From positions 68,667-132,666 of the forward strand of contig CAZKZP010000004.1 in NCBI GenBank assembly GCA_964557295.1: 64,000 bases of DNA. The letters are read 5' to 3'. The DNA comes from an uncultured Chromatiales bacterium. GTDB taxonomy: Bacteria > Pseudomonadota > Gammaproteobacteria > RBG-16-57-12. Under the pieces are notes generated by a model, which was not told where the DNA came from, made no database searches, and was given only the letters and a program-made list of their open reading frames with translations. Below, piece after piece: positions 15,068 to 43,641 of this stretch. Position 1 is the stretch's first letter; each line of letters begins with the position of its first letter. The position numbers and the translations under genes were made by a program.

Positions 15068-16207
15068 TTAGTTACTTACGCAGAGTTCGCCAAATGTTTT
15101 TTCGAATTTTGGCATGGCAACGTCTAACGAATGGTTCCTCTGAAAATATTCGATGCAATTATGCGACACTGACTCATGCTTTTTGGGCGAAGATAAAATG
15201 CCGGTTATCCATTCAATTACTTCATCTGGGGTTCGTGCAAAACCGCCCAAGCCATTTTTCTCGATCACAGAATCAGGGTCCACCGTTGACACCACGGGCA
15301 GTCCGACGCTCCATGCTTCCAAAAACACGTTTGGAAACCCTTCAAAGGTGGAGGTGCAACAAAGCACGGCCGCTCTCCGGTAGAATTTTGCTAAATTACC
15401 GTGGTCAATCCGTCCATGTATGACGACATTGTCCATCTCACGTGCGCGGCTGAGCAGTCCGCTTGAATATTTAGTGTCCATGTTCGCCGCGCCAACAATA
15501 TCAAATTTTACGTGCTTGAGCTTTTCTGCAACATCCAGCATCCATTCAAGCCTTTTCTCAGCGCTCAATCTTCCCACCCACAGCACATGGTGCTGCTCTG
15601 CCATTTCATTATTCGTCAGCGTTGCACCTCCAATTCCCGCCGACGGCATGCTGATAACTGTCGAATGTTTGCCGAAATTTCTATTCAACAACTGCTGTTG
15701 CTTGTTAGTTTGCACAATCACCACATCGGTTCTTTTGAGGCCATAGCGATATAGCACCCGCTCGCGCAGCGGACGAAGGCTTGGCAGGGACGATTCGCAA
15801 TCTGGATCACTGGCAACAGAGTACACAACTTTTTTTCCATGTCGATGCGCCCAATTGACAACCTGCCCCAAACCCATGTCTCCGCAGTTATAATAATAGA
15901 TGTCAGCATCGGCCTTTTTCATGGCTTTTATCAAACTTGTCCAGCGCGGATATATAAATCGAACCACTGGAATGCCGTCATCGCGATCACACATTTTGTA
16001 CACGCGAACGCCATCCACCAGCTCACCATCTGGCTGCCCTTCATCCCATGTGATCATGCTTACCTTGTACCCGTGACTGGCGAGCCACTTAGCCATGAGG
16101 GACTGCTGTCGCTCAATCCCGCCCGCATGCCTTTTGTTATTTCCAACCAATGCGCCATACGCATGGTGCGCAACAAAGCATATTGATGGCTTGCTCAATC
16201 CACACAC
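15068..16207 (-). CDS. glycosyltransferase family 4 (GT-B, retaining)
   Basis: 379 aa with the GT4 signature EGFPNVFLEAWSVGLPVVST. Confidence 0.85.
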   Translation of the reverse strand: MCGLSKPSICFVAHHAYGALVGNNKRHAGGIERQQSLMAKWLASHGYKVSMITWDEGQPDGELVDGVRVYKMCDRDDGIPVVRFIYPRWTSLIKAMKKADADIYYYNCGDMGLGQVVNWAHRHGKKVVYSVASDPDCESSLPSLRPLRERVLYRYGLKRTDVVIVQTNKQQQLLNRNFGKHSTVISMPSAGIGGATLTNNEMAEQHHVLWVGRLSAEKRLEWMLDVAEKLKHVKFDIVGAANMDTKYSSGLLSRAREMDNVVIHGRIDHGNLAKFYRRAAVLCCTSTFEGFPNVFLEAWSVGLPVVSTVDPDSVIEKNGLGGFARTPDEVIEWITGILSSPKKHESVSHNCIEYFQRNHSLDVAMPKFEKTFGELCVSN

Positions 16208-16295
16208 TCCGATAACTTAATCAATCTCTAAACCATCCCGCACCCACGGAACAATGGCAGCGAATAAGCGCGATTGCTTCAGATCATGCCAGTAG

Positions 16296-17453
16296 TTATT
16301 GCGCTTTTGAATCCATGATCGCTCGATACATGGCGATAGTTCTCTGCGCCACTGACTCGGGATGATACTTGGCAGCCGCATCCTGCCGCCCATTTTCCGC
16401 GATCTTATTCCGCATGCCCGCATCGGTCAGCAGCTCGATCAATCTTTGCGCCAATCGGTCATGGTCGTCAGGGCCGACAAGAAAGCCTGTTCTCCCTTCC
16501 TCGATCATGTAGGGCATACCGCACACATTGGACGAAATGACCGGCACGCCAGCCGCCATGGCCTCTGCGATTGCCATCGGCGCATTCTCTTGATACGAGG
16601 GCAACACAAACACACTGGCTTCACTCAACTCCTTGCGCATCTGCTGTTGACTCAGCCTGCCCAGCAGGTGCACTCGGGTCTCAAGGCCATTCTGAACGAT
16701 GATATTTTTTATCTCACGATAATATTCAACCTCTCCGCCTGGCTCGCCTGCTATGTGCAGCTGCGCATCGACTCCAGCCGCAATCACTTTTATAAAAGCC
16801 TTGATTAGCCCAAGCGCATTTTTTCGTGGATTCAACCACCCGGCAAAGAACACTCTTCCCGCCTGCTCATTGCGCTCGATGGCGAAAAAGTCGCGCGAAA
16901 TTGCATTTTCTATTTCATAGACTTTTGCAGATGTCAGCGGCTCAATCTCTTTTCTTACGTAGGGATTAATGGATACGATGTGATGTTGTCGGGACAATCC
17001 AAATGACTCCGCCCGCCGCCATAACAACGAGCGTAGCCGCCAGAACGGCTTTCGCTCGGCGCCCAGATTGAGGCTGTCGAATCCGTGCACTGTGAATACC
17101 GACGGCACCCTTAGCTTATGCACGCCCAATCCATAGGTTTCCTGAAAATGCACAATATCGGGATTCAATGAGGACACATACTGCTTAAGCAGCCGCTCCC
17201 CTGGCCCGAAGAAAATGTCAAACATCATCGGCCAACGAGTTTTCGGTAATCTGTGGACAGTAATATTCTCGACTTTCTCTACTGAGATAGCATGACGACC
17301 CTTCTCAAAGGTCACCACATGCAACTCGTGTTCACCCGATGAAAGCAGCCCACGCAATAATCCAATGGTCGCGGTTTCGACACCACCACGTGGATTATCC
17401 ATGCTGGCAGGCATGCGGCTAAAAATCACTACTCTCATCGTTTTCCTTAGCAA
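16296..17453 (-). CDS. glycosyltransferase family 4
   Basis: 385 aa (an alternative start lies 5 codons in). It carries the GT4 signature ENAPMAIAEAMAAGVPVISSNVCG. Confidence 0.85.
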   Translation of the reverse strand: MLRKTMRVVIFSRMPASMDNPRGGVETATIGLLRGLLSSGEHELHVVTFEKGRHAISVEKVENITVHRLPKTRWPMMFDIFFGPGERLLKQYVSSLNPDIVHFQETYGLGVHKLRVPSVFTVHGFDSLNLGAERKPFWRLRSLLWRRAESFGLSRQHHIVSINPYVRKEIEPLTSAKVYEIENAISRDFFAIERNEQAGRVFFAGWLNPRKNALGLIKAFIKVIAAGVDAQLHIAGEPGGEVEYYREIKNIIVQNGLETRVHLLGRLSQQQMRKELSEASVFVLPSYQENAPMAIAEAMAAGVPVISSNVCGMPYMIEEGRTGFLVGPDDHDRLAQRLIELLTDAGMRNKIAENGRQDAAAKYHPESVAQRTIAMYRAIMDSKAQ

Positions 17454-17587: not shown

Positions 17588-19516
17588 CTACAGCCCACGC
17601 AAGTCGCTAAGCTGATAATTATTCCCGTCCATCACCCTGTCTTCGATATACATGCGGTACCAGACCTCGAGCGCGATGATACTCCAGAGCTGCAAAGAGT
17701 AATCTCGCGCGCCGCTCATGTGTTCCGCAATCAGTTTTTGCACAGCTCCGCCGTCGAGCAATCCCGTTCGATTCACTTGCTCCGGCGACAGGAAGGCGCT
17801 GATAAATTCTTTCAGCTCCCCCTTGAACCATTGGCCGATTGGAGAATCGAAACCGACTTTCTTCCGCTCGACAATCTGCTCTGGCAAGTACTTCTTGGCG
17901 ACTTCCTTCAAGATGTGTTTGGTTCGCGTGCCTTTGAGCCGGTATTGATTTGGCAGCTTGGCGGCATACTCGACCAGCTTGTAATCACACAGAGGTGAAC
18001 GCACCTCAAGGCTGTTGGCCATGCTCATGCGATCCATGTAGGTCAGCTGATATTCGGGGAGGTAGCCCTCCACCTCAAGTGATGTGGCCCGCTGGAAGAT
18101 AGTCATTTCTGATGATCCGCCCATCAAGTGATCTCGCAAAAAACTATCGCCGGCAGGATTGTCCGCCAAGCGCCGGCAGTTTTCAGAGATCAGTGCACTG
18201 CGTACATCCGGATTCAGCAAGCTCACCCAGGATAGATAAGCCTGGTCTGGCGGCAGATCCGCACCGGTCACAAATCGCTTGACCCGCTTGGCGAAACGGC
18301 TTCCGGTCGTGGACTCTGGCCATTTCATCGCGATGCGCTCGACGATCTGGGCTCGGACGAATTTCGGCAGGCGCTGATAGTATTCGAGATAACGCAAGCC
18401 TTGATGCTTGGGATAACCGTAAAACAGCTCATCGCCACCTGTGCCGCCGAGCGCGACCTTGAGCCGCTTGCGCACGAATTCGCACAACAGATACACCAAA
18501 ACTGATGTCGGCTCGCCGTGCGGTTCATCATAGTGCCAGATGATTCGCGGCAACAATTCCATGCTGGAGTGCGCTTCGAGAATCAACTCATGGTGCTGTG
18601 TGCCCAGGTGGTCGGCGACGCGTTGGGCATGACTCAGCTCATTGAATCCGGCGGCCTCACCACGATAGCCAACGGAAAATGTCTGCACTTGCGCTTCGTG
18701 CTTTTTCATCAGCGCGCAGATCAGTGAGGAATCGATACCGCCGCTGAGAAAGGCCCCCACCTCCACATCACTCTTGAGGCACAGCCGGATGGCTTCATCG
18801 AGCTCATGCTCCAGGCCGGCAAGCGCGTCACGATAGGAAATGTCGAGCGTTTTTGAAAAATCATTGTACCAATAGCGCTTCAGTGCACAACCGGTTTGTT
18901 CGCGCCAGATCAGCATCTCGCCGGGCTGCAGGCGTGATATTTCTTTATAGAATGTCTTGGGTCCCGCCACATATCCGGCAGCGAGAAAATCACAGACGGA
19001 TTGCGCCTCGACCGTACGGCTGGACAATGCCTGGAGAATGGTCTTCATTTCCGACCCGAAAAATACCCGGCCCTCTTGCTGAGCGTAATAAAGAGGCTTT
19101 TCACCGATGCGGTCACGCGCCAGGATCAGCTGGCGCTGTTTGGCATCCCAGAGCGCAATACCGAACATGCCGCGCAGATGATGCACGAAGTCCAGACCGT
19201 AATCCTCATACAGATGGACAATGGTTTCGGTATCGGAGTGCGTCTTCAAGGTGTGGCCACGCTGGATAAGCTGCGCCCTCAATTCCTCGAAGTTGTAAAT
19301 CTCGCCATTGAAGACCACCCAGACATCCTGGGTTTCATTCGTGATGGGCTGATTGCCGGATTTCAGATCGATGATGGCCAGCCGGCGCATCGCCAGCCCG
19401 ACGCCTGGTGCCGTGTAATAGCCGGCATCATCGGGCCCGCGATGCGTCATGCTGTTGCACATCGCGCGCAGCAGATTGCCGTCATCCAAGCCTACATATC
19501 CAGTGATGCCGCACAT
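17588..19516 (-). CDS. asnB: asparagine synthase (glutamine-hydrolysing) family amidotransferase, exosortase-locus type
   Basis: 642 aa. An N-terminal MCGITG class-II glutamine amidotransferase nucleophile is followed by the PP-loop SGGIDSS. It sits within the EPS operon. Confidence 0.9.
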   Translation of the reverse strand: MCGITGYVGLDDGNLLRAMCNSMTHRGPDDAGYYTAPGVGLAMRRLAIIDLKSGNQPITNETQDVWVVFNGEIYNFEELRAQLIQRGHTLKTHSDTETIVHLYEDYGLDFVHHLRGMFGIALWDAKQRQLILARDRIGEKPLYYAQQEGRVFFGSEMKTILQALSSRTVEAQSVCDFLAAGYVAGPKTFYKEISRLQPGEMLIWREQTGCALKRYWYNDFSKTLDISYRDALAGLEHELDEAIRLCLKSDVEVGAFLSGGIDSSLICALMKKHEAQVQTFSVGYRGEAAGFNELSHAQRVADHLGTQHHELILEAHSSMELLPRIIWHYDEPHGEPTSVLVYLLCEFVRKRLKVALGGTGGDELFYGYPKHQGLRYLEYYQRLPKFVRAQIVERIAMKWPESTTGSRFAKRVKRFVTGADLPPDQAYLSWVSLLNPDVRSALISENCRRLADNPAGDSFLRDHLMGGSSEMTIFQRATSLEVEGYLPEYQLTYMDRMSMANSLEVRSPLCDYKLVEYAAKLPNQYRLKGTRTKHILKEVAKKYLPEQIVERKKVGFDSPIGQWFKGELKEFISAFLSPEQVNRTGLLDGGAVQKLIAEHMSGARDYSLQLWSIIALEVWYRMYIEDRVMDGNNYQLSDLRGL

Positions 19517-19582: not shown

Positions 19583-20827
19583 TCACCCGAGCCGATATTG
19601 ACCAATCACCGCATTTAACTCATCATGCCAGCGGGCGGCAATCGCCTCGGTACTGCTATATCCGAGCGCATCGCGGCTCGCGGACAGTGAACAGGATTGC
19701 CAGTGGCTTTCGTCATTCAAGAGACATAGAATCTTGTCCCTGAATTGGCCGATTGCGTCACCGGGCAATATATATCCGTTGTGATCGTTCCGAATGATAT
19801 CACCCAGATCGCCCACCTCTGCGACGACCGGCACCGTCCCCATGGCCATCGCCTCCAACATGGCAATGGACATCCCCTCCCAGCGCGATGTCAGCACAAA
19901 GACCTTGGCGCGCGACACAAGCTCTGGCACATCGCTGCGTTGCCCCATGAACTGCAGGTGGTGGCTGATACCTAATGCCTGCGCCTGCGCCTTGAGGTCT
20001 CCTGCATCGGGGCCGTCACCTATCAGCACTGCCTTCAGGCCAGGCACCTCTTTGGCCACCTCGGCGACTACCCTGACGAATCGATCAGGGCGCTTGTATT
20101 CCGTCAGCCGACCGACGAACACCAGATCATCCGCGCGCTGACTGAGCGGCAATGGCGCAGCGGGCGCCTCGATACTGCCGGTGATGATGCACAGTCTGCG
20201 GCGGTAACCAAGCTGTCTGATGTAATCCGCGGCCTTGTTCCCGCGCACCACCACCAAGTCAAAGGCGCGCACGACTGCGAACGCAAAGCGCTCCACCAAA
20301 CGGCTTGGTCGGCCCAGCGCAACCAGTACTCGATTCTCTGCGTGCCATCCTCCCCCCTCAAGCTCCAGCGGGCCGGATGTCACTTGATAACAGGCAGGCC
20401 GTCGAAACAGCCGCGCCGCCACCAATGCAGAGACGGCTGCGGGAAAAATATGATATCCCATATAGAGATCCGGTCGATAACGCCAGCCGCAACGGACCGC
20501 CCAGATAAATTTGGCCAGAGCGCGACTGAACAATTTAGATAACAGTGGCGGCGGACACTCATAACGCAGTCTGTCGAGCATTTCCACCGGCTCGTCGCAG
20601 ACAAGGATCACCTCATTGACGCCGCTTTGCGTCAACGGACGAATGTGCGCATGAAACCAATTGGGATTGTGGAAGGTGCCGATCACCAGGATTCGCCCAG
20701 TACTTGTCAGGGGGTGTTTGCTTCGGCCGGCAAGCAGTTTCGCGACAGCCCAGCTCAACCCGTATATCGTTGACAAAATCACGGTTGCCGCCAATCGAAG
20801 CAGGCTGGATTTGATCTTGTTTTTCAT
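19583..20827 (-). CDS. glycosyltransferase family 4 with N-terminal membrane anchor
   Basis: 414 aa with an N-terminal hydrophobic segment and the GT4 signature EGMSIAMLEAMAMGTVPVVAEVG. Confidence 0.8.
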   Translation of the reverse strand: MKNKIKSSLLRLAATVILSTIYGLSWAVAKLLAGRSKHPLTSTGRILVIGTFHNPNWFHAHIRPLTQSGVNEVILVCDEPVEMLDRLRYECPPPLLSKLFSRALAKFIWAVRCGWRYRPDLYMGYHIFPAAVSALVAARLFRRPACYQVTSGPLELEGGGWHAENRVLVALGRPSRLVERFAFAVVRAFDLVVVRGNKAADYIRQLGYRRRLCIITGSIEAPAAPLPLSQRADDLVFVGRLTEYKRPDRFVRVVAEVAKEVPGLKAVLIGDGPDAGDLKAQAQALGISHHLQFMGQRSDVPELVSRAKVFVLTSRWEGMSIAMLEAMAMGTVPVVAEVGDLGDIIRNDHNGYILPGDAIGQFRDKILCLLNDESHWQSCSLSASRDALGYSSTEAIAARWHDELNAVIGQYRLG

Positions 20828-20925
20828 TGTATGTTCATCGTATGCAATTGCAACTTCATCGGCGACGACATGTCGGTCGTGTTTTTTTATTAACCCGGCG
20901 ATTAAATATATCTGCCACGTATCTT

Positions 20926-21062
20926 AAAAGCGTCCCTTCTCCCTCCGGGAGAAGGATAGGATGAGGGAGTAAATTAATGTGTTAATCCCCCTCACCCTAG
21001 CCCTCTACCCTAAAGGGCATAAATCCCGGAGGGAGAGGGAACAGTACACCAGATCCATTTTG
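20926..21062. repeat. interspersed repeat family 1 copy (hairpin ccttctccc-tccg-ggagaagg, core ggatgagggagtaaattNatg...ccccctcaccctagccctct, second hairpin)
   Basis: An 85-bp core is shared at about 90% with 26996-27095. A partial third copy (ttctccctgagggagaa) lies at 21090-21140. Confidence 0.6.
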
Positions 21063-21174
21063 TCGCCGGGTTAATAATTTAATCATCGGCGCCAAAATAG
21101 GTCTGCTTTTATTCCTTCTCCCTGAGGGAGAATGAACGTCTTGAATATGCGACAGAGGTGTTACTAACTTGGCG

Positions 21175-21262
21175 GCTAAAGATACCTGCTGCTGTAGGAG
21201 CAAGCTTCAGCTTGCGATCAGCCACCGCTGCGATGATCGCCATCTAAAGATGGCTCCTACAT
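21175..21262. repeat. REP-like repeat family 2 copy B (ctgtaggagcaagcttcagcttgcgatc...gatcgccatctaaagatggctcctac)
   Basis: The motif gccatctaaagatggctcctac is shared with 46298-46340. Motifs are also shared with 540-625 and 46800-46895. Confidence 0.6.
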
Positions 21263-21297
21263 CAGATGTAATTGATCGCCGAGTTAATACTAACCAA

Positions 21298-22905: not shown

Positions 22906-23868
22906 TCATACGTAACCGAAGTTGCGATTGGTTGCACCCGCCTTGGACTCGAACCGAGCAAGATCCGCCGAACTCAACTCCGACTTCCAGCGCTCATCCA
23001 ATCGGATCTGCTCGATTGCCTTTAAGCGCATGTTATTGCCGAGGATGTGATGCTCGACACGATTGAAGTCCGGCGCCGCCTCATTCGGCTCCAACCCGAT
23101 GAAACGATAGATCCGATCCAACACCTGAGCATGATCGCGGCAGAGATCCTCGTAGCGCACGACCAAGTGTTCCTGCGATGTCAGCATTTCGGACATAGAC
23201 TTCATCTCGCTAATCGTGTGCAGCCATTCCTTGAGCGCCCCGTTCATCGTGTGCTGCTCATGCCTCATGTAGGAGCAGGTCACCCCGCGACCGTCACGCA
23301 CCAGTGAAATCACGCGCACCTTTCGCCAGGGCGCCATCATTAAATGCTTGAGTCGCACCGGATCTTTCGATCCGTCCAGAAAGACCTGCCCACCCTTGAT
23401 TCGAGTGATAATCTCAATAAGTGTCAGGTTCTGCAGCAGTATCTGTGAGCGCTTGTCGCGGCAATGCCCGGACCGGCGAAACAAAAATTCACGCCCTGTC
23501 TCAAAACTTCGGCCACGCACCGCAGCATGCAGCAATCGATCGCAAAAATAGTCGTTGTCACGGAAATGCGTGCCGTAATGTTCCAGTGAAAACGGTAAGC
23601 CTTGCTTCGTCATCGCCTCGTCGACCTGCCGCCAGAATCCACAGGTTTTGATCGGGGCGCCGCAGGAGCACTGATAGCGTTCGATGTCCCCCATCGCGGT
23701 CGCCTTCAGTTCACCGATCGTGGATATTTCAGGGTGCGCCGCCATCATCATGGTCAAGAGCGTCGAACCGGAATAACTCGGTGACATGATATATACCAGA
23801 TCACCCAGCGGCCGTTCGTGCGCCACCGTATTAGTTTGCCCCATCCTAAAATCACCTAGCATTGTCAC
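22906..23868 (-). CDS. sulfotransferase family protein
   Basis: 320 aa with an N-terminal PAPS-binding-like P-loop (YIMSPSYSGSTLLTMMMAAHPE) and the fold typical of Stf0/Sulfotransfer_3-type carbohydrate sulfotransferases. Confidence 0.7.
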   Translation of the reverse strand: MTMLGDFRMGQTNTVAHERPLGDLVYIMSPSYSGSTLLTMMMAAHPEISTIGELKATAMGDIERYQCSCGAPIKTCGFWRQVDEAMTKQGLPFSLEHYGTHFRDNDYFCDRLLHAAVRGRSFETGREFLFRRSGHCRDKRSQILLQNLTLIEIITRIKGGQVFLDGSKDPVRLKHLMMAPWRKVRVISLVRDGRGVTCSYMRHEQHTMNGALKEWLHTISEMKSMSEMLTSQEHLVVRYEDLCRDHAQVLDRIYRFIGLEPNEAAPDFNRVEHHILGNNMRLKAIEQIRLDERWKSELSSADLARFESKAGATNRNFGYV

Positions 23869-26939: not shown

Positions 26940-26995
26940 TCACCTCTTTGCAATTACATTCATCTCGTGAGAACAGCCGTCACGATACCCTGGGC

Positions 26996-35406: not shown

Positions 35407-35824
35407 TTCGCATAATTATCGAAAAAAATCTGTTAGCCAGAATTCAGCGAGCGCCATTTTCCCATGCCGCGCCAAAAATCACCATCTCATTAAGACTCTC
35501 AGAGGCCAAACACGTCAGCGCGCCCCCTCAATTCAAGACTATAGTAATGATTCCTTTCGTAAATCAGCGCTTCCTGCCAGGGCCGCCGCAGCCTCTGTCA
35601 TGCTCCGGCAAGCGGGGTTTGCCTCTCGGCGGTCGGGAGGCATCGATGCCGCGGGTGCGAAATGCTGACGTACCTCGGCACCTCCGCCAGCGCGTCGCGC
35701 GTCACGCACAATAAATCATATTAGCGATTTATTATGCACCCTTTATGACAACATGACACCGCTAAACGGCCGTGCGGCAGCACTGCGTTTTGCTGCGGGG
35801 CCGCCAGGATTCTCGCTGCGCTGA

Positions 35825-38632: not shown

Positions 38633-40180
38633 CTATTCTGCCTGGCCGCCTGCTCGCGCCGGCGTGCCGAGCTTGTACAAATTCGAGACGGACAGGAAAT
38701 CGTGCAGCCGCGCGGCCGCCTCATCCTTGGATCCGTGATAATCCGTGGCCAGCGCAAAGACCGACGCCCCGCGTTCGCCCGCAACGATGCCCAGCAAATC
38801 ATACAGCTTTGCCCGCGCCGGACTGATGGTGCGCCGCGCCCCTACCTCATACCAGTACCAGATCAAGCGCCGCATCGAGCCGGCCTCCAGGACCAGCTCG
38901 TTGACATCCGTGCGTTGCCCCTCCGCCAGGTCAACACTGACTGCGCGCTCTTCGCGCGGGACCCAGCCGGATCTGGGATAGAGGCGATTCTCGACATTGA
39001 TCAGCTCCCGGCCCTGGGTCTGCTTGTTATAGTTTCCGATATACAGATACACGGGTGCCGCGCTCGACCGGTACACCGCGCGGTAGTGGGAGGAGGCCCC
39101 GACATAGTGCGGCTCCCAATCGAGCTGCTCCCCGTGCGAAACCAGGCGCCAGTCTCCCGCCGCCTGTGGCGGCACATGGCCGTAAGCCTGCTCATAACCA
39201 TGGTCGGCCAGTCGCGCTGTCAGCGGCGGCAACAGTAGCAGCCCGGCCAGACCGATGACGCTGACCGGAGCGCGCAACGCCCGCAACCGCTCCGTTCCAC
39301 GCAGGGAGGCGGCCGCGCTACTGGCGCCGGAGTCTGGATCCGCGGCCGGCTGCCCCGACACCAACTTTGCCCCGACCCAGAACAAGGGGATCAACATGAA
39401 GGCGTAGAGTATCCAGCCGAAGGTGATGTGATCCTGCACGATGGGGTGTTGCATGTGAGTGTAATTGCCCACCAGTATGATCACGATCACCCGCAGCCAG
39501 TTGGAAATAATCGCCAGCGCCAGCGAATATGCAACGAAGAATATCCCCTTGCGCATCCCGAGCTGGTTGACATGGGCAAACAACACCCCGAGTGTCAGCG
39601 CCGTGAGAAAGAAGCTCACCCCGGCGCAGGACTCTTCGACCAGAAACTGGCCGCCGGGCACGGAAAGGGAGTAACCGTCACGGAACACCGGCACATCGAT
39701 CAGCTTGATGAAAAGATAGGAAACCTCGGTGGTCATCACCCGCAGGGGATGCTCAAGCCAGCCCCACACCGGGCTTGCGAACAGAATGAAGACGATTGGA
39801 AACCAGACGCGCTGAAACACCGTCCGACCGAAGATGGCCAGCACGCTGGCGAGCAACAAGGCGACCACGCCCAACAGTTGCAACAGAAAGACATTGCTCA
39901 AAAAACCGACGGCCCACACGCCACCGGCCAGCACGGCCAGCAGCAGCCCGAGGGCATTCGGACGAATATCGCAGCGCGCCAGCTGCTCACGCTGCTTCCA
40001 GACGAGATAGGCCATGATGGCCAGCACCAAAAAGCCGTGACTATAGACCCCGCCGCCTTGCGCCCATTCCTCCAGCAGCAAGCCCAGCGTCGGCCAATAA
40101 CTCACCCCCCAGGCAACGACCAGCCCCAGAAGTAAAATGCCGACATAAGGGGGATAGGTGTCCGATACCGCTTTATTCAT
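38633..40180 (-). CDS. xrtA: exosortase A (XrtA) fused to a C-terminal EpsI-family domain
   Basis: 515 aa. The N-terminal roughly 300 aa are polytopic with exosortase motifs (VEESCAGVSFF active-site Cys region; conserved NWLRVIVII Arg). The C-terminal roughly 200 aa are a periplasmic EpsI-like domain (..YRAVYRSSAAPVYLYIGNYNKQTQGRELIN..). Confidence 0.8.
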   Translation of the reverse strand: MNKAVSDTYPPYVGILLLGLVVAWGVSYWPTLGLLLEEWAQGGGVYSHGFLVLAIMAYLVWKQREQLARCDIRPNALGLLLAVLAGGVWAVGFLSNVFLLQLLGVVALLLASVLAIFGRTVFQRVWFPIVFILFASPVWGWLEHPLRVMTTEVSYLFIKLIDVPVFRDGYSLSVPGGQFLVEESCAGVSFFLTALTLGVLFAHVNQLGMRKGIFFVAYSLALAIISNWLRVIVIILVGNYTHMQHPIVQDHITFGWILYAFMLIPLFWVGAKLVSGQPAADPDSGASSAAASLRGTERLRALRAPVSVIGLAGLLLLPPLTARLADHGYEQAYGHVPPQAAGDWRLVSHGEQLDWEPHYVGASSHYRAVYRSSAAPVYLYIGNYNKQTQGRELINVENRLYPRSGWVPREERAVSVDLAEGQRTDVNELVLEAGSMRRLIWYWYEVGARRTISPARAKLYDLLGIVAGERGASVFALATDYHGSKDEAAARLHDFLSVSNLYKLGTPARAGGQAE

Positions 40181-40201: not shown

Positions 40202-41545
40202 CTATTTCAGCCCGTGTCTTTCCATCAAGTCGTACATCGTCGGGCGGCTGACGCCGAGCATCTCGGCGGCCTTGGAGACATTGCCGTGGGTGATCGAAAG
40301 CACGGTATTGATGGCGGTGAATTCCGCCTTTTCCCGGACATCGCGCAGATTGAATTGCTGCGGCGCCCGATCGGGATCGGCCAGGGGTAACTCGAGATCT
40401 TCGGCCTTGACCAGGCTGTCATCGGCCATGATCACCGCCCGCTTGATCTTGTTTTCCATCTCGCGCACATTTCCGGGCCACGGGTATTGTTCGATCGCCG
40501 CAAGCGCCTCCGGGCTGAAGCCGCGCAATTTGCGCCCCATCTCCGCGGCGTATTTTTCCAGGAAAAATCGGGCCAGCAGCCGCGCGTCGCCGCTGCGTTC
40601 ACGCACGGGCGGGATGACCACCGAAATCTCACTCAAGCGGTAATAGAGATCTTCGCGGAACTCGCCGGAGGATATCAGCGCGGCGATATCCCGATTGGTG
40701 GCACTGATCACGCGCACATCGACCGGGATCTCCTCGCGTCCGCCCACCCGCTCGATCACCCTTTCCTGCAAGAACCGCAGCAGCTTGGCCTGTAGGGACA
40801 TGGGCATCTCGCCGATCTCGTCGAGAAACAGCGTGCCGCCGTGCGCCAGCTCGATCTTGCCCTTGGTCTGCTTGGCCGCGCCGGTGAAGGCCCCCTTCTC
40901 GTAGCCGAACAGCTCGCTCTCCAGCAGATTCTCCGGGATGGCCGCGCAATTGATCGCGACGAACCGGGCTTTCCCTCGGCTGCTCAGCGTATGCAGGGCG
41001 TTGGCCAGAATCTCCTTTCCGGTGCCGCTTTCTCCCAACAACAAGACGGATACATCGGCCGGGGCCACGCGCTCGATGGTCTTGCAAACCTTGAGCATCT
41101 CAGGGCTGCACGCCACGACATTCTGCAATGGGGAGTGATAACTGCGATCGAGACGTTTGATCTCCTGTTCGAGATCGTACAGATGAAAGGCGCGCTCAAC
41201 GATCAAGCCTAAGACATCCGGCTCGATCGGCTTTTGGTAGAAATCATACGCCCCTAGGGCAATCGCCGAGACGGCGTTCTTGCGGTCATCGTTGCCGGTG
41301 ACGACCACCACCTTGGTCTGTGGGGACTTCGAGACGATCGCCTCCAGCGCCCGTAGCCCTTCGACCTCGTTCTCCGGGTGCGGCGGCAAGCCGAGATCCA
41401 GGAGCACCACGGCCGGGGCATGCTCCTTGAACTTCGCCAAGGCGTCCTCGCGTTGCGAGGCGAATATGAGCGCGTATTTGTCGAAACACCAGCGGTATTG
41501 GCTCTGGAGGCCGGCATCATCCTCCACGATCAATAACTTTCTCAC
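40202..41545 (-). CDS. prsR: PEP-CTERM-box sigma-54-dependent response regulator (PrsR-like, NtrC family)
   Basis: 447 aa. A receiver domain (LLIVEDD...VLLDLGLPP) is followed by an AAA+ sigma-54 interaction domain (GESGTGKE, GAFTGA) and a C-terminal Fis-type HTH. Confidence 0.85.
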   Translation of the reverse strand: MRKLLIVEDDAGLQSQYRWCFDKYALIFASQREDALAKFKEHAPAVVLLDLGLPPHPENEVEGLRALEAIVSKSPQTKVVVVTGNDDRKNAVSAIALGAYDFYQKPIEPDVLGLIVERAFHLYDLEQEIKRLDRSYHSPLQNVVACSPEMLKVCKTIERVAPADVSVLLLGESGTGKEILANALHTLSSRGKARFVAINCAAIPENLLESELFGYEKGAFTGAAKQTKGKIELAHGGTLFLDEIGEMPMSLQAKLLRFLQERVIERVGGREEIPVDVRVISATNRDIAALISSGEFREDLYYRLSEISVVIPPVRERSGDARLLARFFLEKYAAEMGRKLRGFSPEALAAIEQYPWPGNVREMENKIKRAVIMADDSLVKAEDLELPLADPDRAPQQFNLRDVREKAEFTAINTVLSITHGNVSKAAEMLGVSRPTMYDLMERHGLK

Positions 41546-41583
41546 CCTGTTCCCCCGAATTCATAAGCGCGCATCCAAACTTC

Positions 41584-43641
41584 CTATTCCACGCAAGCTG
41601 GGAGCGCGATTATAAAGGATGTGCCCTGCCCCGGCATACTGTCGACGGTAATTTTACCGCCCAACCCCTGGATGTACTCCCGCGCCTCGTAGACGCCGAT
41701 CCCCATTCCCGCATTACCCTTGGTGGTATCAAAGGGCTTGAACAGCCGATCCTTGATGAAGGCTTGATCCATGCCGCAGCCATTATCGCTGACCGTTATG
41801 GTAACCGTTGCATTGGCGCACGCCAAATCCACCGTCACCCAGCCGTCATCCGCGGTTGCCTCCTGGGCATTTTGCACGATGTGCTCCAGTACCGCATGCA
41901 GCCGCGCGGGATCGGCGATCACGCAGGCGTCTTCGTTGCCATTCGCTTTCAGCCGGGGGAGCGGCGACTGCTGCGCACGCTGCTGGCACAGGGCCGCCAA
42001 CACCTTGACGACATTGACCTTCTCGACCTGCGCGGCCATTGCACCGCGATCCTTGCGCAACTGGCTCAGCATCTTGGTCATGCGATTGACGGCATTGTCG
42101 ACCGTGGCGAAGGCATCGTCGATGAACGCCGGGTTTGCACGGTGCTTCTCGGCGTTTTTCATCACCAGGGACAATTGTGCGACGACATTCTTCAGATCAT
42201 GGACCACATAGGCCGAGAGGCGGTTGAAGGCCTCGAACTGGCGCGCCTCGAACAACGACTGCGTCGTGTGCACCAGCGCCAGATAACCCGCCGCCTGCCG
42301 CCCCGCGGTCTTGAGCAGATCGCGATCCTCCCAGTTGAAGTCGATGTCCGCCCGCGGCTGCTTGAGCAGCAGGATGGCATACAGCTCGTCATGATGCATC
42401 AACGGCACCAACAGGCGCGCCTGGGGTATATCGAGCAGCCACGCCGGCAATTCCACTTTTTCATCCTCTTCCAGATTCTTTCTGCGATCCTTGATATCGA
42501 TGACCCAGTCTTTCTCCCTCATCAACTGCGCCAGCGCCCCCTGCGCCGCGAAACCCACCTCAGGCAGATCCGCCATGCCGACCTGCGCCGACAGGAGATA
42601 CTGGCCGCTGCCATCCTTGACCCATAGGGCGCCGCCGGAACAATCGATGATCCGGGCCAGCGCCTCGATGGCGCGCGTGCCAATGTCCTGCTGATACTCC
42701 GCGCCCGAAAATGCCTGCATGAATCTCAGCCATTCGCTGCGATAGTCGTAACGGTAGGGAAAGAAGTGTTTGTTGATGTACACCCGGATCCTGGCGCGCA
42801 GCTGGTCGGAAAAAAGCAGCACCATCAGCATCATCAGCCCGAGCGCCAGGAACACTACCTGTAGAACGATGCCCGCGGCGCCGCCCACGGTACGCAGATA
42901 ATATCCCACCGTGCTGATCACCAGGAGGTAGACCCCCGCCCCGATCATGCTGGCGCTGTGGAACGCCATCTGTCGCGAGAGCATCACCGTGCCCGGCTGT
43001 TTCAAGCCGCGCGAGACCGCCAGCACCAGCAGGGGCGCCGCCAAGGCATTCACGAGACCGCGCGCGTCCCATAACGCCGGATTGAGTTCCTTAAATAGGA
43101 TGGCGTCGGAATACATGACTAGGTCGTAGCAGAACACCGTCCCCAGTCCAATGAAATAAAATTTCACCGACCAACGCTGTTTCTCACTGGAGTTTTTCAA
43201 TAATTGCTCAAGGAGTATCAGCCCGGCGATGGCCAGGACGATGTATTCCATCGCCCAGACATCCCACAACGACACCTTGAACACAAAGCTGGTATCGAAT
43301 TGTAAATAAAGGTCCAGGGCAAGGGCGGCAAGAAACACTCCGCCCATCACTCTCAGCACCTGCCGGAAGGGCGCGGCGACATATTTGTTCTCATCCTGCG
43401 GCTTCAGCAGCAGGATCAGCACCAGAATCCAGGCCACCCCTCGGTAGAGCTCGAGAAAATGAAACAGCCGCGGCGAGTCCCCGGCGGCCACAGCCGCCGC
43501 ACCCGCCCACAGCGCGGTGATCAATGCCGCGATGGCATGCAGCCGGAACAGACCCTGCCGCGCTCCGCTGCGCAGCACGTAGATCGAATAGAAGAGAAAA
43601 GCGGCGCAGCAGATCGCATAGCTGACGGAGGTAACGCTCAT
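41584..43641 (-). CDS. prsK: PEP-CTERM system sensor histidine kinase (PrsK-like)
   Basis: 685 aa. A polytopic N-terminal half is followed by a GAF-like region, a HisKA H-box (VVHDLKNVVAQLSL) and HATPase_c (DNGCGMD...GMGIG). Confidence 0.8.
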   Translation of the reverse strand: MSVTSVSYAICCAAFLFYSIYVLRSGARQGLFRLHAIAALITALWAGAAAVAAGDSPRLFHFLELYRGVAWILVLILLLKPQDENKYVAAPFRQVLRVMGGVFLAALALDLYLQFDTSFVFKVSLWDVWAMEYIVLAIAGLILLEQLLKNSSEKQRWSVKFYFIGLGTVFCYDLVMYSDAILFKELNPALWDARGLVNALAAPLLVLAVSRGLKQPGTVMLSRQMAFHSASMIGAGVYLLVISTVGYYLRTVGGAAGIVLQVVFLALGLMMLMVLLFSDQLRARIRVYINKHFFPYRYDYRSEWLRFMQAFSGAEYQQDIGTRAIEALARIIDCSGGALWVKDGSGQYLLSAQVGMADLPEVGFAAQGALAQLMREKDWVIDIKDRRKNLEEDEKVELPAWLLDIPQARLLVPLMHHDELYAILLLKQPRADIDFNWEDRDLLKTAGRQAAGYLALVHTTQSLFEARQFEAFNRLSAYVVHDLKNVVAQLSLVMKNAEKHRANPAFIDDAFATVDNAVNRMTKMLSQLRKDRGAMAAQVEKVNVVKVLAALCQQRAQQSPLPRLKANGNEDACVIADPARLHAVLEHIVQNAQEATADDGWVTVDLACANATVTITVSDNGCGMDQAFIKDRLFKPFDTTKGNAGMGIGVYEAREYIQGLGGKITVDSMPGQGTSFIIALPACVE

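What the first reader, a model, noticed from the sequence alone, without database searches (positions are those of the whole stretch)
15068..43641. 28.5-kb uninterrupted co-directional block of 19 EPS genes with tight or overlapping junctions
All genes from the first GT4 to prsK are on the minus strand. Several junctions overlap (33117/33120, 32320/32323). Only two intergenic gaps exceed 400 bp, and both are filled by repeats. The order prsK-prsR-xrtA/epsI-prsT-exporter-Wzz-kinase-OMP is the canonical conserved core. The distal half (heparinase, initiating transferase, wecB, CE4, GT26, sulfotransferase, Wzx, 3x GT4, AsnB) is the variable, structure-determining part. It predicts an amino-sugar-containing, partly deacetylated, sulfated heteropolysaccharide.
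Basis: partly seen in the sequence, partly recalled or inferred. Interest (0 to 1): 0.5.

Follow-up and report, generated by a model that had tools for sequence, protein, structure and literature searches.

The report
Exosortase-linked exopolysaccharide gene cluster, mosaic
This is a real but ordinary kind of bacterial slime-making gene cluster: a known protein-sorting, regulation and export core (XrtA/PEP-CTERM) joined to a widespread, still unstudied sugar-assembly module that carries a sulfate-adding enzyme.

Summary
Nineteen back-to-back genes fill 92.6% of the minus strand of 15068-43641, and no credible plus-strand gene lies inside. All eight core assignments (PrsK, PrsR, XrtA-EpsI fusion, PrsT, exporter, Wzz, tyrosine kinase, outer-membrane protein) score above the curated NCBIfam cut-offs.

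Four points need correcting.
1. Three gaps exceed 400 bp, not two. The third (prsT to exporter, 418-457 bp) has no repeats and ends in a conserved upstream stretch, probably a promoter region.
2. The repeats in the other two gaps are insertions specific to this genome. The collinear relative (a MAG, 66-91% amino-acid identity) has 58 and 124 bp there.
3. The "variable distal half" is a conserved module. GT26, Wzy, sulfotransferase, Wzx, GT4s, AsnB, CE4, the heparinase-like gene and a beta-helix gene recur together in unrelated metagenome contigs, mostly without an exosortase.
4. The cluster does not end at 15068. Wzy and other module genes lie on a convergent plus-strand arm reaching about 3059.

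The core gene order recurs in about 20 gammaproteobacterial loci, but it is only one of two common layouts. No PEP-CTERM cargo gene is in the window. The product chemistry (ManNAc-containing, deacetylated, sulfated) is inference only.

Verdict: new member of a known kind, modest interest.

The parts
41584..43641 (-). prsK, XrtA/PEP-CTERM system sensor histidine kinase (685 aa, about 8 TM-like segments)
   Evidence: TIGR02916 729.4 bits against a cut-off of 300. H-box HDLKN at residue 481. A sigma-70-like site lies upstream at 43706-43679.
40202..41545 (-). prsR, sigma-54-dependent response regulator
   Evidence: TIGR02915 701.5 bits against a cut-off of 502.6. GAFTGA motif at residue 218.
38633..40180 (-). 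xrtA-epsI fusion, exosortase A with a C-terminal EpsI domain (515 aa)
   Evidence: TIGR03109 230.7 bits against a cut-off of 208. TIGR02914 110.6 bits over residues 338-497. The XrtW model scores 221.8, below its cut-off of 425. Cys185, Arg230 and His251 are invariant in 18 homologues.
35825..38602 (-). prsT, TPR lipoprotein (925 aa)
   Evidence: TIGR02917 593.3 bits against a cut-off of 312.2. Lipobox LQLTAC.
35368..35824 (-). third long intergenic gap (418-457 bp), repeat-free; its exporter-proximal ~130 nt are conserved, probably an internal promoter or 5' leader
   Evidence: Gap size. Fold z-score -1.5. The MAG gap is 178 bp. Only the proximal stretch aligns with the MAG (121 nt at 78%). 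A sigma-70-like site lies at 35759-35731. No sigma-54 consensus was found.
34687..35367 (-). short OPX exporter lipoprotein (226 aa from the ATG; the ORF extends to 35406)
   Evidence: TIGR03027 229.3 bits against a cut-off of 180. Signal peptide MKVTMIVLLCLVMLLSGC. The MAG orthologue carries Poly_export and SLBB only.
33117..34628 (-). Wzz-type chain-length determinant (PCP)
   Evidence: TIGR03007 547 bits against a cut-off of 278.85.
32323..33120 (-). BY-type tyrosine autokinase
   Evidence: TIGR03018 260.5 bits against a cut-off of 230.65. Walker-A-like NEGKS and C-terminal tyrosine cluster FYYPY. Overlaps the Wzz stop codon.
30944..32320 (-). TIGR03016 PEP-CTERM-associated outer-membrane beta-barrel protein (458 aa from the ATG)
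   Evidence: TIGR03016 162 bits against a cut-off of 90.85. Signal peptide and C-terminal Phe. A 2-nt spacer follows the TyrK stop codon.
28819..30852 (-). heparinase II/III-like (PL12-like) protein with no signal peptide and no TM segment
   Evidence: PF16889 107.7 bits and PF07940 189.7 bits. Closest solved structure is heparinase III, E=1e-18. No TM-like segment. 83% identical to the MAG orthologue at the same position.
27382..28794 (-). initiating polyprenyl glycosylphosphotransferase
   Evidence: TIGR03025 420.5 bits against a cut-off of 295.55. It is NOT the XrtA-specific TIGR03013 (222.7 bits, below the cut-off of 393.35).
26940..27381 (.). 442-bp gap holding two inserted elements: a 277-bp palindromic MITE-like element (27093-27369, 38-nt terminal inverted repeats) and a REP-like unit (about 27015-27082)
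   Evidence: Fold z-score -15.3. The MAG has 58 bp here and lacks these sequences.
25785..26939 (-). wecB, UDP-GlcNAc 2-epimerase
   Evidence: TIGR00236 289.4 bits against a cut-off of 210.15.
24767..25729 (-). CE4 polysaccharide deacetylase, cytoplasmic
   Evidence: PF01522 51.5 bits. Motifs VVDDG, HTCSH and CYPNG are present, with no TM segment and no signal peptide. It does not match TIGR03006.
23895..24680 (-). GT26 WecG/TagA/CpsF-family ManNAc(A) transferase
   Evidence: TIGR00696 157.4 bits against a cut-off of 69.
22906..23868 (-). PAPS-type sulfotransferase, cytoplasmic
   Evidence: PF13469 57.6 bits and PF00685 37.9 bits. 5'-PSB-like SPSYSGSTLL and 3'-PB-like RDGRGVTCS. It is the gene immediately upstream of the Wzx homologue in 24 of 40 metagenome loci.
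21298..22878 (-). Wzx-type MOP flippase
   Evidence: Its own hits are weak (NF041503 E=1.6e-5; MatE E=0.0019). Homologues at 40-52% identity carry PF13440, PF01943 or PF01554 and are named flippase by their sources. 14 TM-like segments.
20828..21297 (.). 470-bp gap filled by nested palindromes, the shared REP-like unit (20935-21009) and a second REP family (core 21233-21260)
   Evidence: Fold z-score -9.8. The MAG has 124 bp here without these sequences.
19583..20827 (-). GT4 glycosyltransferase (GT4a)
   Evidence: PF00534 119 bits. 83% identical to the MAG orthologue.
17588..19516 (-). AsnB-like glutamine amidotransferase
   Evidence: TIGR01536 464.5 bits against a cut-off of 267.1. TIGR03108 560.9 bits, below its cut-off of 816.9. 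59-66% identical to AsnB genes in module loci.
16296..17453 (-). GT4 glycosyltransferase (GT4b)
   Evidence: PF00534 130.9 bits. 71% identical to the MAG orthologue. GC3 0.57.
15068..16207 (-). GT4 glycosyltransferase (GT4c), the last gene of the minus-strand arm
   Evidence: PF13692 75.6 bits. Only 41-42% identical to the MAG counterpart. GC3 0.52.
13460..14950 (+). Wzy/O-antigen-ligase-family polymerase, convergent with the block and OUTSIDE the reported coordinates
   Evidence: PF04932 61.5 bits. 70% identical orthologue in the same convergent position in the MAG. In module loci elsewhere it lies between GT26 and the sulfotransferase.
11781..13463 (+). polytopic membrane protein of unknown family next to Wzy
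   Evidence: No family hit. Six TM-like segments. The MAG has a dissimilar 549-aa membrane protein in the same neighbourhood.
7925..11427 (+). two tandem secreted right-handed beta-helix proteins (7925-9622 and 9742-11427)
   Evidence: PF13229. 67% identical to each other. The MAG has a single copy, 88% identical to the second gene. Homologues occur in module loci.
4365..7840 (+). two lipoproteins with fn3/He_PIG domains (4365-6665 and 7373-7840) at the head of the plus-strand arm
   Evidence: MAG orthologues are 73% identical. A He_PIG/fn3 protein also flanks the module in L055.
3059..4084 (-). conserved 341-aa protein of unknown family that also occurs inside module loci elsewhere; probable left edge of the locus
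   Evidence: 82% identical to the MAG orthologue. 48-55% identical homologues lie in L059, L067 (between PGT and GT26) and L091. No Pfam, NCBIfam or PDB hit.

Best explanation
The region is one arm of a locus of about 40 kb (roughly 3059-43641) for a Wzx/Wzy-dependent exopolysaccharide linked to the XrtA/PEP-CTERM protein-sorting system. It is a mosaic of two parts.

Part 1, prsK to OMP (8 genes): the exosortase core.
- PrsK and PrsR form a sigma-54-dependent two-component system. By analogy with Aquincola, it drives PEP-CTERM cargo genes located elsewhere rather than the polysaccharide genes.
- The XrtA-EpsI fusion is the transpeptidase-like sorting enzyme.
- PrsT is a TPR lipoprotein.

Part 2, the heparinase-like gene to GT4c plus the convergent arm: an autonomous conserved assembly module.
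- PGT primes undecaprenyl phosphate.
- WecB supplies UDP-ManNAc and GT26 adds it.
- Three GT4 enzymes extend the unit.
- A cytoplasmic CE4 deacetylase, a PAPS-type sulfotransferase, an AsnB-like amidotransferase and a PL12-like protein tailor the lipid-linked unit.
- Wzx flips the unit and Wzy (plus strand) polymerises it.

Transcription is probably in at least two units (prsK-prsT, and exporter onward). Two further spacers were enlarged by MITE/REP-like insertions that are specific to this genome.

Shown: family memberships, gene order, synteny, and the insertion status of the repeats. Inferred: the enzymatic order, the sugar chemistry, the transcription units and the regulatory targets.
For: - Family scores.
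- Motifs and topology.
- Collinearity with MAG GCA_040752855.1 across both arms, 66-91% identity from prsK to AsnB.
- Recurrence of the module without XrtA. L055 reads Hep-PGT-CE4-x-GT26-Wzy-SulfoT-Wzx-x-GT4-AsnB-GT4-GT4-beta-helix, next to a tRNA synthetase gene. L054 and L056 are similar.
- Among 19 metagenome loci with at least 5 kb on both sides of the Wzx homologue: GT4a in 16, SulfoT 15, GT26 14, Wzy 13, GT4c 13, Hep 8, CE4 7, AsnB 6, xrtA-like only 3.
- PGT and AsnB score below the XrtA-specific models TIGR03013 and TIGR03108, as expected if they come from the module rather than the core.
- Core order recurs in about 20 gammaproteobacterial loci.
- Repeats are absent from the MAG and its spacers are short.
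- A conserved stretch precedes the exporter gene.
- GC3 falls from 0.72-0.79 in the core to 0.52-0.57 in GT4b/c and 0.44-0.49 in Mem, Wzy and BH1.
- Literature: Haft 2006 PMC1569441; Aquincola PMC9850573, where RpoN controls pepA but not the EPS genes; composite OPX/beta-barrel translocon PMC9601211.
Against: - No PEP-CTERM cargo gene is in the 64-kb window, so the functional link between XrtA and this polymer is by adjacency only.
- The XrtA-locus hallmark genes TIGR03015, TIGR03006, TIGR03019, TIGR03013 and TIGR03097 are absent from the window.
- The Wzx assignment rests on homologues, not on a direct family hit.
- PF04932 does not separate polymerases from ligases.
- No UDP-sugar dehydrogenase is present here, although the MAG has one, so a uronic-acid substrate for AsnB or the PL12-like protein is unsupported in this genome.
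- Promoter and terminator scans are at or below shuffle expectation, so the transcription units are not established.
Confidence: 0.75

Rival explanations
1. One reading: a single 19-gene operon that is the complete system. It would consist of a canonical conserved core followed by a strain-variable, structure-determining half.
For: All 19 genes are co-directional and most spacers are tight. No convincing terminator lies on the minus strand within the gaps. The core families are confirmed. GC falls towards the distal end.
Against: - Wzy lies outside the block on the other strand, and this placement is conserved in the relative.
- There are three long gaps, one of which has a conserved promoter-proximal stretch.
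- The distal half is collinear in the MAG and recurs as a module in unrelated contigs.
- Real variability is confined to the end of the arm: GT4c is 41% identical, the MAG has four extra genes there, and Mem is non-orthologous.
- The core order is one of two common layouts.
Confidence: 0.15
2. The distal module makes an O-antigen or another lipid-anchored surface glycan rather than a secreted or capsular EPS. On this reading the PF04932 protein is a WaaL-type ligase, and the adjacency to XrtA is incidental.
For: PF04932 covers both ligases and polymerases, and sources name the homologues 'O-antigen ligase'. The module is usually found without an exosortase. wecB plus GT26 is also the ECA/teichoic-acid type of chemistry.
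Against: - A PCP-2a pair (Wzz plus BY-kinase) and an OPX lie directly upstream here. Wzz-TyrK also precedes the module in L060, L068, L072 and L074. This pairing is typical of capsule or EPS pathways, not O-antigen.
- The core-to-module junction is conserved in the MAG.
- Without this protein, no polymerase candidate remains in the locus.
Confidence: 0.08
3. The heparinase-like and beta-helix proteins mark a polysaccharide-degrading locus that merely neighbours biosynthetic genes.
For: PL12-like domains and an alginate-lyase hit. Secreted beta-helix proteins resemble lyases or depolymerases.
Against: - The window holds no sulfatases, TonB/SusCD or ABC sugar uptake genes, or sugar catabolic genes linked to these proteins.
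- The PL12-like protein has no signal peptide.
- It sits between the OMP and PGT genes in both genomes.
- It co-occurs with the biosynthetic module elsewhere.
Confidence: 0.03

Closest known systems
XrtA/PEP-CTERM (EpsH) exopolysaccharide-associated protein-sorting system (Haft et al. 2006, PMC1569441); experimentally, the zooglan/floc-formation clusters of Zoogloea resiniphila and Aquincola tertiaricarbonis (PMC9850573)
   Same: XrtA, the EpsI domain, PrsK, PrsR, PrsT, the TIGR03027 exporter, TIGR03007 Wzz, the TIGR03018 kinase and the TIGR03016 OMP are all present above the curated cut-offs. They are embedded in polysaccharide biosynthesis genes, including an AsnB paralogue and GT4 enzymes.
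   Different: - XrtA is fused to EpsI and sits between prsR and prsT.
- No TIGR03015 ATPase, TIGR03006 deacetylase, TIGR03019 FemAB-like protein, TIGR03013 EpsB2 or TIGR03097 ligase-like gene is in the window.
- PGT and AsnB fall below the system-specific cut-offs.
- No PEP-CTERM cargo gene and no sigma-54 site are in the window.
- The assembly half is a different module that contains a sulfotransferase.
Methanolan eps cluster of Methylobacillus sp. 12S (source of the names EpsH/EpsI; cited in PMC1569441)
   Same: A Wzx/Wzy-type EPS cluster containing epsH (the exosortase) followed by epsI, with exporter, chain-length and kinase genes.
   Different: EpsH and EpsI are separate genes there, whereas they are fused here (text). 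I did not compare the glycosyltransferase content directly.
Composite short-OPX/beta-barrel outer-membrane translocons (EpsY/EpsX of Myxococcus xanthus, VpsN/VpsM of Vibrio cholerae; PMC9601211, PMC9603273)
   Same: A short lipoprotein OPX of about 226 aa with a PES domain plus SLBB and no Wza-type pore domain. It is encoded near a dedicated beta-barrel OMP and a PCP.
   Different: The pairing is inferred only. The OMP belongs to TIGR03016, not the EpsX family; its strand number and any interaction were not tested.
Sulfated bacterial polysaccharide loci: synechan xss cluster of Synechocystis (PMC8205485) and sulfated capsule loci of marine Vibrio and Cobetia (PMC11641403, PMC11766843)
   Same: Wzx/Wzy-dependent clusters that encode cytoplasmic sulfotransferases beside glycosyltransferases.
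   Different: I know these only from the titles and abstracts returned by the search. No sequence or synteny comparison was made. The gene set here (PL12-like, CE4, GT26, AsnB, beta-helix) was not found described in the papers searched.

Membership tests
XrtA/PEP-CTERM system | Exosortase A (TIGR03109) with conserved Cys/Arg/His | tested here: met
   230.7 bits against a cut-off of 208. C185, R230 and H251 are invariant in 18 homologues.
XrtA/PEP-CTERM system | EpsI domain fused to or adjacent to the exosortase (TIGR02914) | tested here: met
   110.6 bits against a cut-off of 42.8, over residues 338-497 of the same protein.
XrtA/PEP-CTERM system | PrsK, PrsR and PrsT regulatory trio | tested here: met
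   729, 701 and 593 bits, all above their cut-offs. GAFTGA motif in PrsR.
XrtA/PEP-CTERM system | PEP-CTERM cargo proteins (TIGR02595) in the genome | not testable with these tools
   A six-frame motif scan found none in the 64-kb window. The rest of the genome is not available, and the source genome was not found among the GTDB representatives.
XrtA/PEP-CTERM system | Sigma-54 cis-element upstream of cargo genes | not testable with these tools
   There are no cargo genes in the window. No TGGCAC-N5-TTGCW match with 2 or fewer mismatches lies in any intergenic gap of the block, and the window total is below shuffle expectation (28 against 37.8).
XrtA/PEP-CTERM system | System-specific export set: TIGR03027, TIGR03007, TIGR03018, TIGR03016 | tested here: met
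   229, 547, 260 and 162 bits, all above their cut-offs.
XrtA/PEP-CTERM system | Accessory hallmark genes often in the locus: TIGR03015 ATPase, TIGR03006 deacetylase, TIGR03019 FemAB-like, TIGR03013 EpsB2, TIGR03108 AsnB equivalog | tested here: not met
   None is present in the window. PGT scores 222.7 on TIGR03013 (cut-off 393). AsnB scores 560.9 on TIGR03108 (cut-off 816.9). CE4 has no TIGR03006 hit. These genes are frequent but not obligatory, so this does not exclude membership.
Wzx/Wzy-dependent polysaccharide pathway | Initiating polyprenyl-phosphate glycosylphosphotransferase | tested here: met
   TIGR03025 420.5 bits against a cut-off of 295.55.
Wzx/Wzy-dependent polysaccharide pathway | Wzx (MOP) flippase | tested here: inconclusive
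   The protein's own hits fall below cut-offs (NF041503 24 bits against 300; MatE 18.3 against 24.9). Homologues at 40-52% identity carry PF13440, PF01943 or PF01554. 14 TM-like segments.
Wzx/Wzy-dependent polysaccharide pathway | Wzy polymerase | tested here: met
   PF04932 61.5 bits against a cut-off of 31.7, but on the plus strand at 13460-14950, outside the reported block. This placement is conserved in the MAG. Polymerase versus ligase cannot be told from sequence.
Wzx/Wzy-dependent polysaccharide pathway | PCP-2a (Wzz plus BY-kinase with Walker A and a C-terminal Tyr cluster) and OPX | tested here: met
   NEGKS motif and FYYPY tail.
Composite OPX/beta-barrel translocon | Short periplasmic OPX lacking the Wza D4 pore helix | tested here: met
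   226 aa. It matches the whole 169-position TIGR03027 profile. The MAG orthologue carries Poly_export and SLBB only.
Composite OPX/beta-barrel translocon | Coupled 16-18-stranded beta-barrel partner that interacts with the OPX | not tested
   The OMP has a signal peptide, a C-terminal Phe and a weak OMP_b-brl hit. No structure was predicted and no interaction test was made.
MITE-like non-autonomous element (27093-27369) | Terminal inverted repeats, small size, no coding capacity | tested here: met
   38-nt TIRs 95% complementary, 277 bp in all. Only spurious small ORFs are present. Absent at the orthologous site in the MAG.
MITE-like non-autonomous element (27093-27369) | Target-site duplication and multiple genomic copies | tested here: inconclusive
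   No clear duplication at the ends. There is a single copy in the window. The exact 23-mer is absent from 185,579 species-representative genomes.

The most novel reading that the evidence does not exclude
The distal module (PGT, WecB, GT26, Wzy, sulfotransferase, Wzx, three GT4, CE4 deacetylase, AsnB-like amidotransferase, a cytoplasmic PL12 heparinase-like protein and a secreted beta-helix protein) may be a widespread, uncharacterised bacterial pathway for a sulfated, partly N-deacetylated amino-sugar polymer resembling a glycosaminoglycan.

In this reading the deacetylase and sulfotransferase act in sequence on the lipid-linked repeat unit in the cytoplasm, in analogy to N-deacetylation/N-sulfation of heparan sulfate. 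The PL12-like protein would act as a tailoring enzyme (for example a C5-epimerase-type or trimming activity) rather than as a degradative lyase.

Such a module could be a genetic source of the sulfated GAG-like polymers reported in granular sludge and anammox granules, whose producers and enzymes are unknown (PMC7356697). Here it is plugged into an exosortase system.
Probability: 0.15. Interest if true: 0.7.

Novelty: new member of a known kind. Interest (0 to 1): 0.3.

Why it matters
As a cluster this is a well-known kind of system: an XrtA/PEP-CTERM-linked Wzx/Wzy exopolysaccharide locus of the type tied to floc and biofilm formation. The finding mainly adds a tidy example from a poorly sampled gammaproteobacterial lineage.

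1. A conserved, widely distributed assembly module centred on a sulfotransferase-Wzx pair was recognised. The product of this module has not been described in the literature I could search. It gives a concrete candidate gene set for bacterial sulfated amino-sugar polymers.
2. Exosortase cores and assembly modules combine as separable cassettes.
3. Mobile palindromic repeats have inflated spacers inside an otherwise compact polysaccharide gene array. This could affect transcript processing or polarity.

Tried and rejected
- Sigma-54 promoter search in the gaps: nothing, and the window total is below shuffle expectation.
- Rfam and tRNA scans of the whole window: no hits, so the long gaps hold no known RNA.
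- Promoter and terminator consensus scans: counts near shuffle expectation, with no minus-strand terminator in the three long gaps. They are uninformative about operon structure.
- PEP-CTERM motif scan of all six frames: only two spurious hits.
- Exact-match search for the MITE terminal repeat in 185,579 species-representative genomes: none. The source genome and other copies could not be identified.
- First attempt at a related-loci search with an 18-sequence XrtA alignment failed because it was too divergent. It was repeated with 6 sequences.
- The exact-sequence look-up gave no source names for window proteins. The XrtA of the window is not in the gene-position index.
- The conserved 341-aa protein at 3059-4084 remains unassigned:
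  - no Pfam, NCBIfam or PDB-profile hit;
  - no profile similarity to the CE4 gene;
- The idea that Mem (11781-13463) is the relocated counterpart of the 425-aa unknown gene that follows Wzx in other module loci was rejected. There is no similarity, and that protein is soluble.
- Literature searches for the module's gene combination returned nothing relevant.

Full report
**1. What is in the sequence**

The ORF list shows 19 consecutive minus-strand ORFs from 15068 to 43641. Using the most likely starts, they cover 92.6% of the span.

The plus-strand ORFs inside the span are not genes.
- The ten longest have no Pfam hit at E<=0.01.
- Of the 15 checked, 13 have the composition of shadow frames, with GC1 of 0.61-0.81. 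The minus-strand genes instead carry the high GC at codon position 3, 0.52-0.79.

Sixteen of the 18 junctions are 134 bp or less.
- Wzz and the kinase overlap by 4 nt (TTG start) or 1 nt (ATG start).
- The kinase and the OMP are separated by 2 nt (TAG tc ATG) if the OMP starts at the ATG at 32320. That start matches the 457-aa orthologue in the relative. They overlap only if an upstream GTG is used.

Three gaps exceed 400 bp, not two:
- prsT to exporter, 418 bp. This becomes 457 bp if the exporter starts at the ATG that opens the lipoprotein signal MKVTMIVLLCLVMLLSGC.
- PGT to wecB, 442 bp.
- Wzx to GT4a, 470 bp.

A run of 19 co-directional genes is far from random: about 4e-6 with independent orientation, and about 0.002-0.006 with realistic neighbour persistence (my arithmetic). 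It is nevertheless normal for polysaccharide loci.

GC skew is negative across the whole window whatever the gene orientation. The block therefore probably lies on the leading strand.

**2. Family assignments**

The eight core genes each exceed the curated NCBIfam cut-off of the XrtA/PEP-CTERM-specific model.

| Gene | Model | Bits | Cut-off |
|---|---|---|---|
| PrsK | TIGR02916 | 729 | 300 |
| PrsR | TIGR02915 | 701 | 503 |
| XrtA | TIGR03109 | 231 | 208 |
| EpsI domain (residues 338-497 of the XrtA protein) | TIGR02914 | 111 | 43 |
| PrsT | TIGR02917 | 593 | 312 |
| Exporter | TIGR03027 | 229 | 180 |
| Wzz | TIGR03007 | 547 | 279 |
| Tyrosine kinase | TIGR03018 | 260 | 231 |
| OMP | TIGR03016 | 162 | 91 |

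Motif checks agree with these calls:
- GAFTGA in PrsR.
- An H-box in PrsK.
- Cys185, Arg230 and His251 invariant in exosortase homologues.
- A NEGKS Walker-A-like motif and a FYYPY tail in the kinase.
- Lipoboxes in PrsT and the exporter.
- A signal peptide and a terminal Phe in the OMP.

- Heparinase II/III N- and C-terminal domains. The closest solved structure is heparinase III at E=1e-18.
- PGT (TIGR03025), WecB (TIGR00236), GT26 (TIGR00696), three GT4 enzymes and AsnB (TIGR01536).
- CE4 (PF01522, 51 bits), with its DD, HxxxH and YP motifs intact.
- Sulfotransferase (PF13469 and PF00685), with recognisable PAPS-binding motifs.
- Wzx has no family hit above a cut-off. However, 225 homologues were found, and most of those at 40-52% identity carry flippase Pfam domains and flippase names. 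The protein has 14 TM-like segments.

The PL12-like protein, CE4, the sulfotransferase and AsnB have no signal peptide or TM segment, so they should act in the cytoplasm.

Two details matter for the interpretation below. The PGT is not the XrtA-specific EpsB2 (TIGR03013 223 bits, below 393). AsnB is below the XrtA-specific cut-off (TIGR03108 561 bits, below 817).

**3. Boundaries**

To the right, prsK is followed by a divergent Lon-like protease gene, then by glycogen and pentose-phosphate genes. That boundary is real.

To the left, the block meets a convergent plus-strand arm in low-GC DNA (GC 0.44-0.55). The arm carries:
- a Wzy/O-antigen-ligase-family protein at 13460-14950 (PF04932);
- a polytopic membrane protein at 11781-13463;
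- two tandem secreted beta-helix paralogues that are 67% identical;
- two fn3/He_PIG lipoproteins.

Left of the arm, at 3059-4084 on the minus strand, lies a conserved 341-aa protein of unknown family.

The 19-gene block contains no polymerase. A Wzx/Wzy pathway is therefore complete only with the convergent arm.

**4. The nearest relative**

The XrtA-EpsI protein has one close relative, 68% identical, in MAG GCA_040752855.1. That contig is collinear with the window over the whole locus.
- The order is Lon (divergent), then prsK through OMP, then the heparinase-like gene, PGT, wecB, CE4, GT26, sulfotransferase, Wzx, GT4a and AsnB. Identities over this stretch are 66-91%.
- Four extra genes follow in the MAG: a UDP-sugar dehydrogenase, two epimerase/dehydratases and a nucleotidyltransferase.
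- GT4b (71%) and GT4c (41%) come next.
- The convergent arm follows, with Wzy (70%), one beta-helix gene (88% to the second copy here), the small fn3 lipoprotein (73%), the large lipoproteins, and the 341-aa protein (82%).

The part that really varies between the two genomes is only the tip of the minus arm and the membrane protein beside Wzy. That membrane protein has no detectable similarity between the two genomes.

The MAG spacers are 58 bp (PGT to wecB), 124 bp (Wzx to GT4a) and 178 bp (prsT to exporter). The repeat sequences of the window are absent from the MAG.

**5. The repeats**

The PGT-wecB gap holds two elements.
- A 277-bp palindromic element (27093-27369) has 38-nt terminal inverted repeats that are 95% complementary.
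- A unit containing GGGAGAGGGCTAGGGTGAGGGGG recurs in the Wzx-GT4a gap.

The Wzx-GT4a gap also holds nested palindromes and a second REP-like hairpin. Copies of that hairpin lie at 46310-46337 and 595-622.

As RNA, these two gaps fold far better than shuffled controls, with z-scores of -15.3 and -9.8. The prsT-exporter gap does not (z = -1.5). The comparison with the MAG shows these repeats are insertions specific to this lineage.

Whether the repeats terminate or process transcripts cannot be told from sequence. The consensus scans found nothing convincing.

The prsT-exporter gap ends in about 130 nt that are conserved with the MAG. I read this stretch as a promoter or leader for an exporter-onward transcription unit. 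This is an inference.

**6. Is the core order canonical?**

I fetched 47 loci encoding fused XrtA-EpsI proteins from species-representative genomes and mapped the window's proteins onto them.
- About 20 loci, all gammaproteobacterial MAGs including Thiohalobacter and Thiotrichaceae, have (PGT)-prsK-prsR-xrtA/epsI-prsT followed by Wzz-TyrK.
- About 9 loci, from Nitrosomonas and other betaproteobacteria, have export-Wzz-TyrK-OMP ... xrtA-GT4-AsnB, with no prsK or prsR nearby.

In the founding survey, prsK and prsR were in tandem in 12 of 13 genomes. They were joined by prsT in 4 of 13 and lay near epsH in 3 of 13 (PMC1569441).

The order here is thus a recurrent lineage-typical layout, not the single canonical one.

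The window also lacks several genes that often accompany XrtA (TIGR03015, TIGR03006, TIGR03019, TIGR03013, TIGR03097). It lacks any PEP-CTERM cargo gene as well.

**7. The distal half is a conserved module**

Contigs that carry homologues of both the Wzx and the Wzy show the same gene set in one direction.
- L055: Hep-PGT-CE4-x-GT26-Wzy-SulfoT-Wzx-x-GT4-AsnB-GT4-GT4-beta-helix. It is flanked by a tRNA synthetase gene and a He_PIG/fn3 protein, with no exosortase.
- L054: wecB-..-PGT-x-GT26-Wzy-SulfoT-Wzx-x-GT4-CE4-GT4-GT4-Hep.
- L056 is similar.

A metagenome scan with a Wzx alignment returned 80 loci.
- Nineteen of them have at least 5 kb on both sides of the Wzx homologue. Among those 19, window homologues were present as follows: GT4a 16, sulfotransferase 15, GT26 14, Wzy 13, GT4c 13, GT4b 10, wecB 8, Hep 8, CE4 7, AsnB 6, PGT 5, and an exosortase only 3.
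- The sulfotransferase is the gene immediately upstream of Wzx in 24 of 40 loci with at least 1.5 kb of flank.
- Some Wzx homologues are fused to a CE4 domain.

The distal half is therefore structure-determining, but it is not an idiosyncratic variable region. It is a cassette that exists on its own. In this lineage it has been joined to an exosortase core, with Wzy and a few other genes moved to a convergent arm.

**8. Mechanism**

Steps marked 'inferred' rest on established knowledge of the families, not on tests here.
- Inferred: PGT starts the unit on undecaprenyl phosphate.
- Inferred: WecB makes UDP-ManNAc and the GT26 enzyme adds ManNAc. ManNAcA is possible only if a dehydrogenase acts; none is encoded here, unlike in the MAG.
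- Inferred: three GT4 enzymes extend the unit.
- Inferred: CE4, the sulfotransferase, AsnB and the PL12-like protein tailor the unit in the cytoplasm.
- Inferred: Wzx flips the unit, Wzy polymerises it, and Wzz with the BY-kinase controls chain length.
- Inferred: the short OPX and the TIGR03016 barrel export the polymer, as in composite translocons (PMC9601211).
- Inferred: XrtA-EpsI sorts PEP-CTERM proteins that bind or retain the polymer.
- Inferred: PrsK and PrsR with sigma-54 drive the cargo genes rather than this array, as shown for pepA in Aquincola (PMC9850573). This fits the absence of sigma-54 sites here.

**9. Novelty and verdict**

The system is a new member of a known kind. The gap count, one 'overlap', the word 'canonical', the word 'variable' and the locus boundaries all need correction.

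The one aspect with wider potential is the sulfotransferase-centred module. I found no description of its gene combination in the searchable literature. It could bear on the unknown producers of sulfated glycosaminoglycan-like polymers in environmental biofilms (PMC7356697). That remains speculation until the polymer is analysed.

Noticed in passing
window 21233-21260, 46310-46337, 595-622 (weaker copy at 46808-46830): A short REP-like hairpin family (GTAGGAGCCATCTTTAGATGGCGAT) is scattered in intergenic regions across the window. It occurs inside the Wzx-GT4a gap and also between the Lon-like and DUF6763 genes.
   Followed up: partly
window 27093-27369: A 277-bp near-perfect palindromic MITE-like element with 38-nt terminal inverted repeats. 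It has a single copy in the window, no clear target-site duplication, and its terminal 23-mer is absent from 185,579 species-representative genomes.
   Followed up: partly
window 7925-9622 and 9742-11427: Two tandem secreted beta-helix paralogues, 67% identical. The second matches the single copy in the related MAG at 88%; the first matches at only 66% and has a much lower GC3 (0.49 against 0.66). This suggests a divergent or separately acquired copy. Beta-helix homologues accompany the module in other contigs.
   Followed up: partly
window 3059-4084 (-): A conserved 341-aa soluble protein with no Pfam, NCBIfam or PDB match. Homologues (48-55% identical) lie inside sulfotransferase-Wzx modules of unrelated contigs, for example between PGT and GT26 in L067. 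Single-sequence structure prediction failed at pLDDT 41.
   Followed up: partly
window 11781-13463 versus L053 10870-12519: The polytopic membrane protein next to Wzy has no detectable similarity to the membrane protein in the equivalent neighbourhood of the otherwise collinear MAG. This looks like a non-orthologous replacement.
   Followed up: partly
L052 15057-19286 (MAG), between the AsnB and GT4b orthologues: The relative carries four extra genes (a UDP-sugar dehydrogenase, two epimerase/dehydratases and a nucleotidyltransferase) that the window lacks. The two genomes may therefore make different variants of the polymer, for example with and without a uronic acid.
   Followed up: no
proteins P0108, P0119, P0132 (homologues of the Wzx at window 21298-22878): Some flippase homologues are fused to a CE4 polysaccharide-deacetylase domain. 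This hints at a functional coupling between deacetylation and flipping in this module family.
   Followed up: no
L054 12281-13558, L055 14104-15381, L056 9072-10409: A conserved soluble protein of about 425 aa with no Pfam hit follows Wzx in other module loci (51-58% identical to each other). It has no counterpart in the window or the MAG; its position corresponds to the repeat-filled Wzx-GT4a gap.
   Followed up: partly
window 35368-35500: About 130 nt directly upstream of the exporter gene are conserved with the MAG, whereas the rest of the gap is not. This is a candidate promoter or leader. It contains an AGGAGG followed by GTG GTG that could be an alternative start.
   Followed up: partly
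window 46905-59779: The right flank is a glycogen and central-carbon block: malQ, GH57, glgC, glgB, glgA, zwf, glk and pgl. It also holds a DUF6763 gene and a Lon-like protease gene divergent from prsK. The Lon, DUF6763, malQ, GH57 and glgC neighbours are conserved in the MAG.
   Followed up: no
window 638-2981 (-): A GAF plus HD-GYP-type (HD_5) protein and an AAA_14/DUF4143 ATPase lie left of the locus. The former could relate to c-di-GMP signalling, but no link to the cluster was examined.
   Followed up: no
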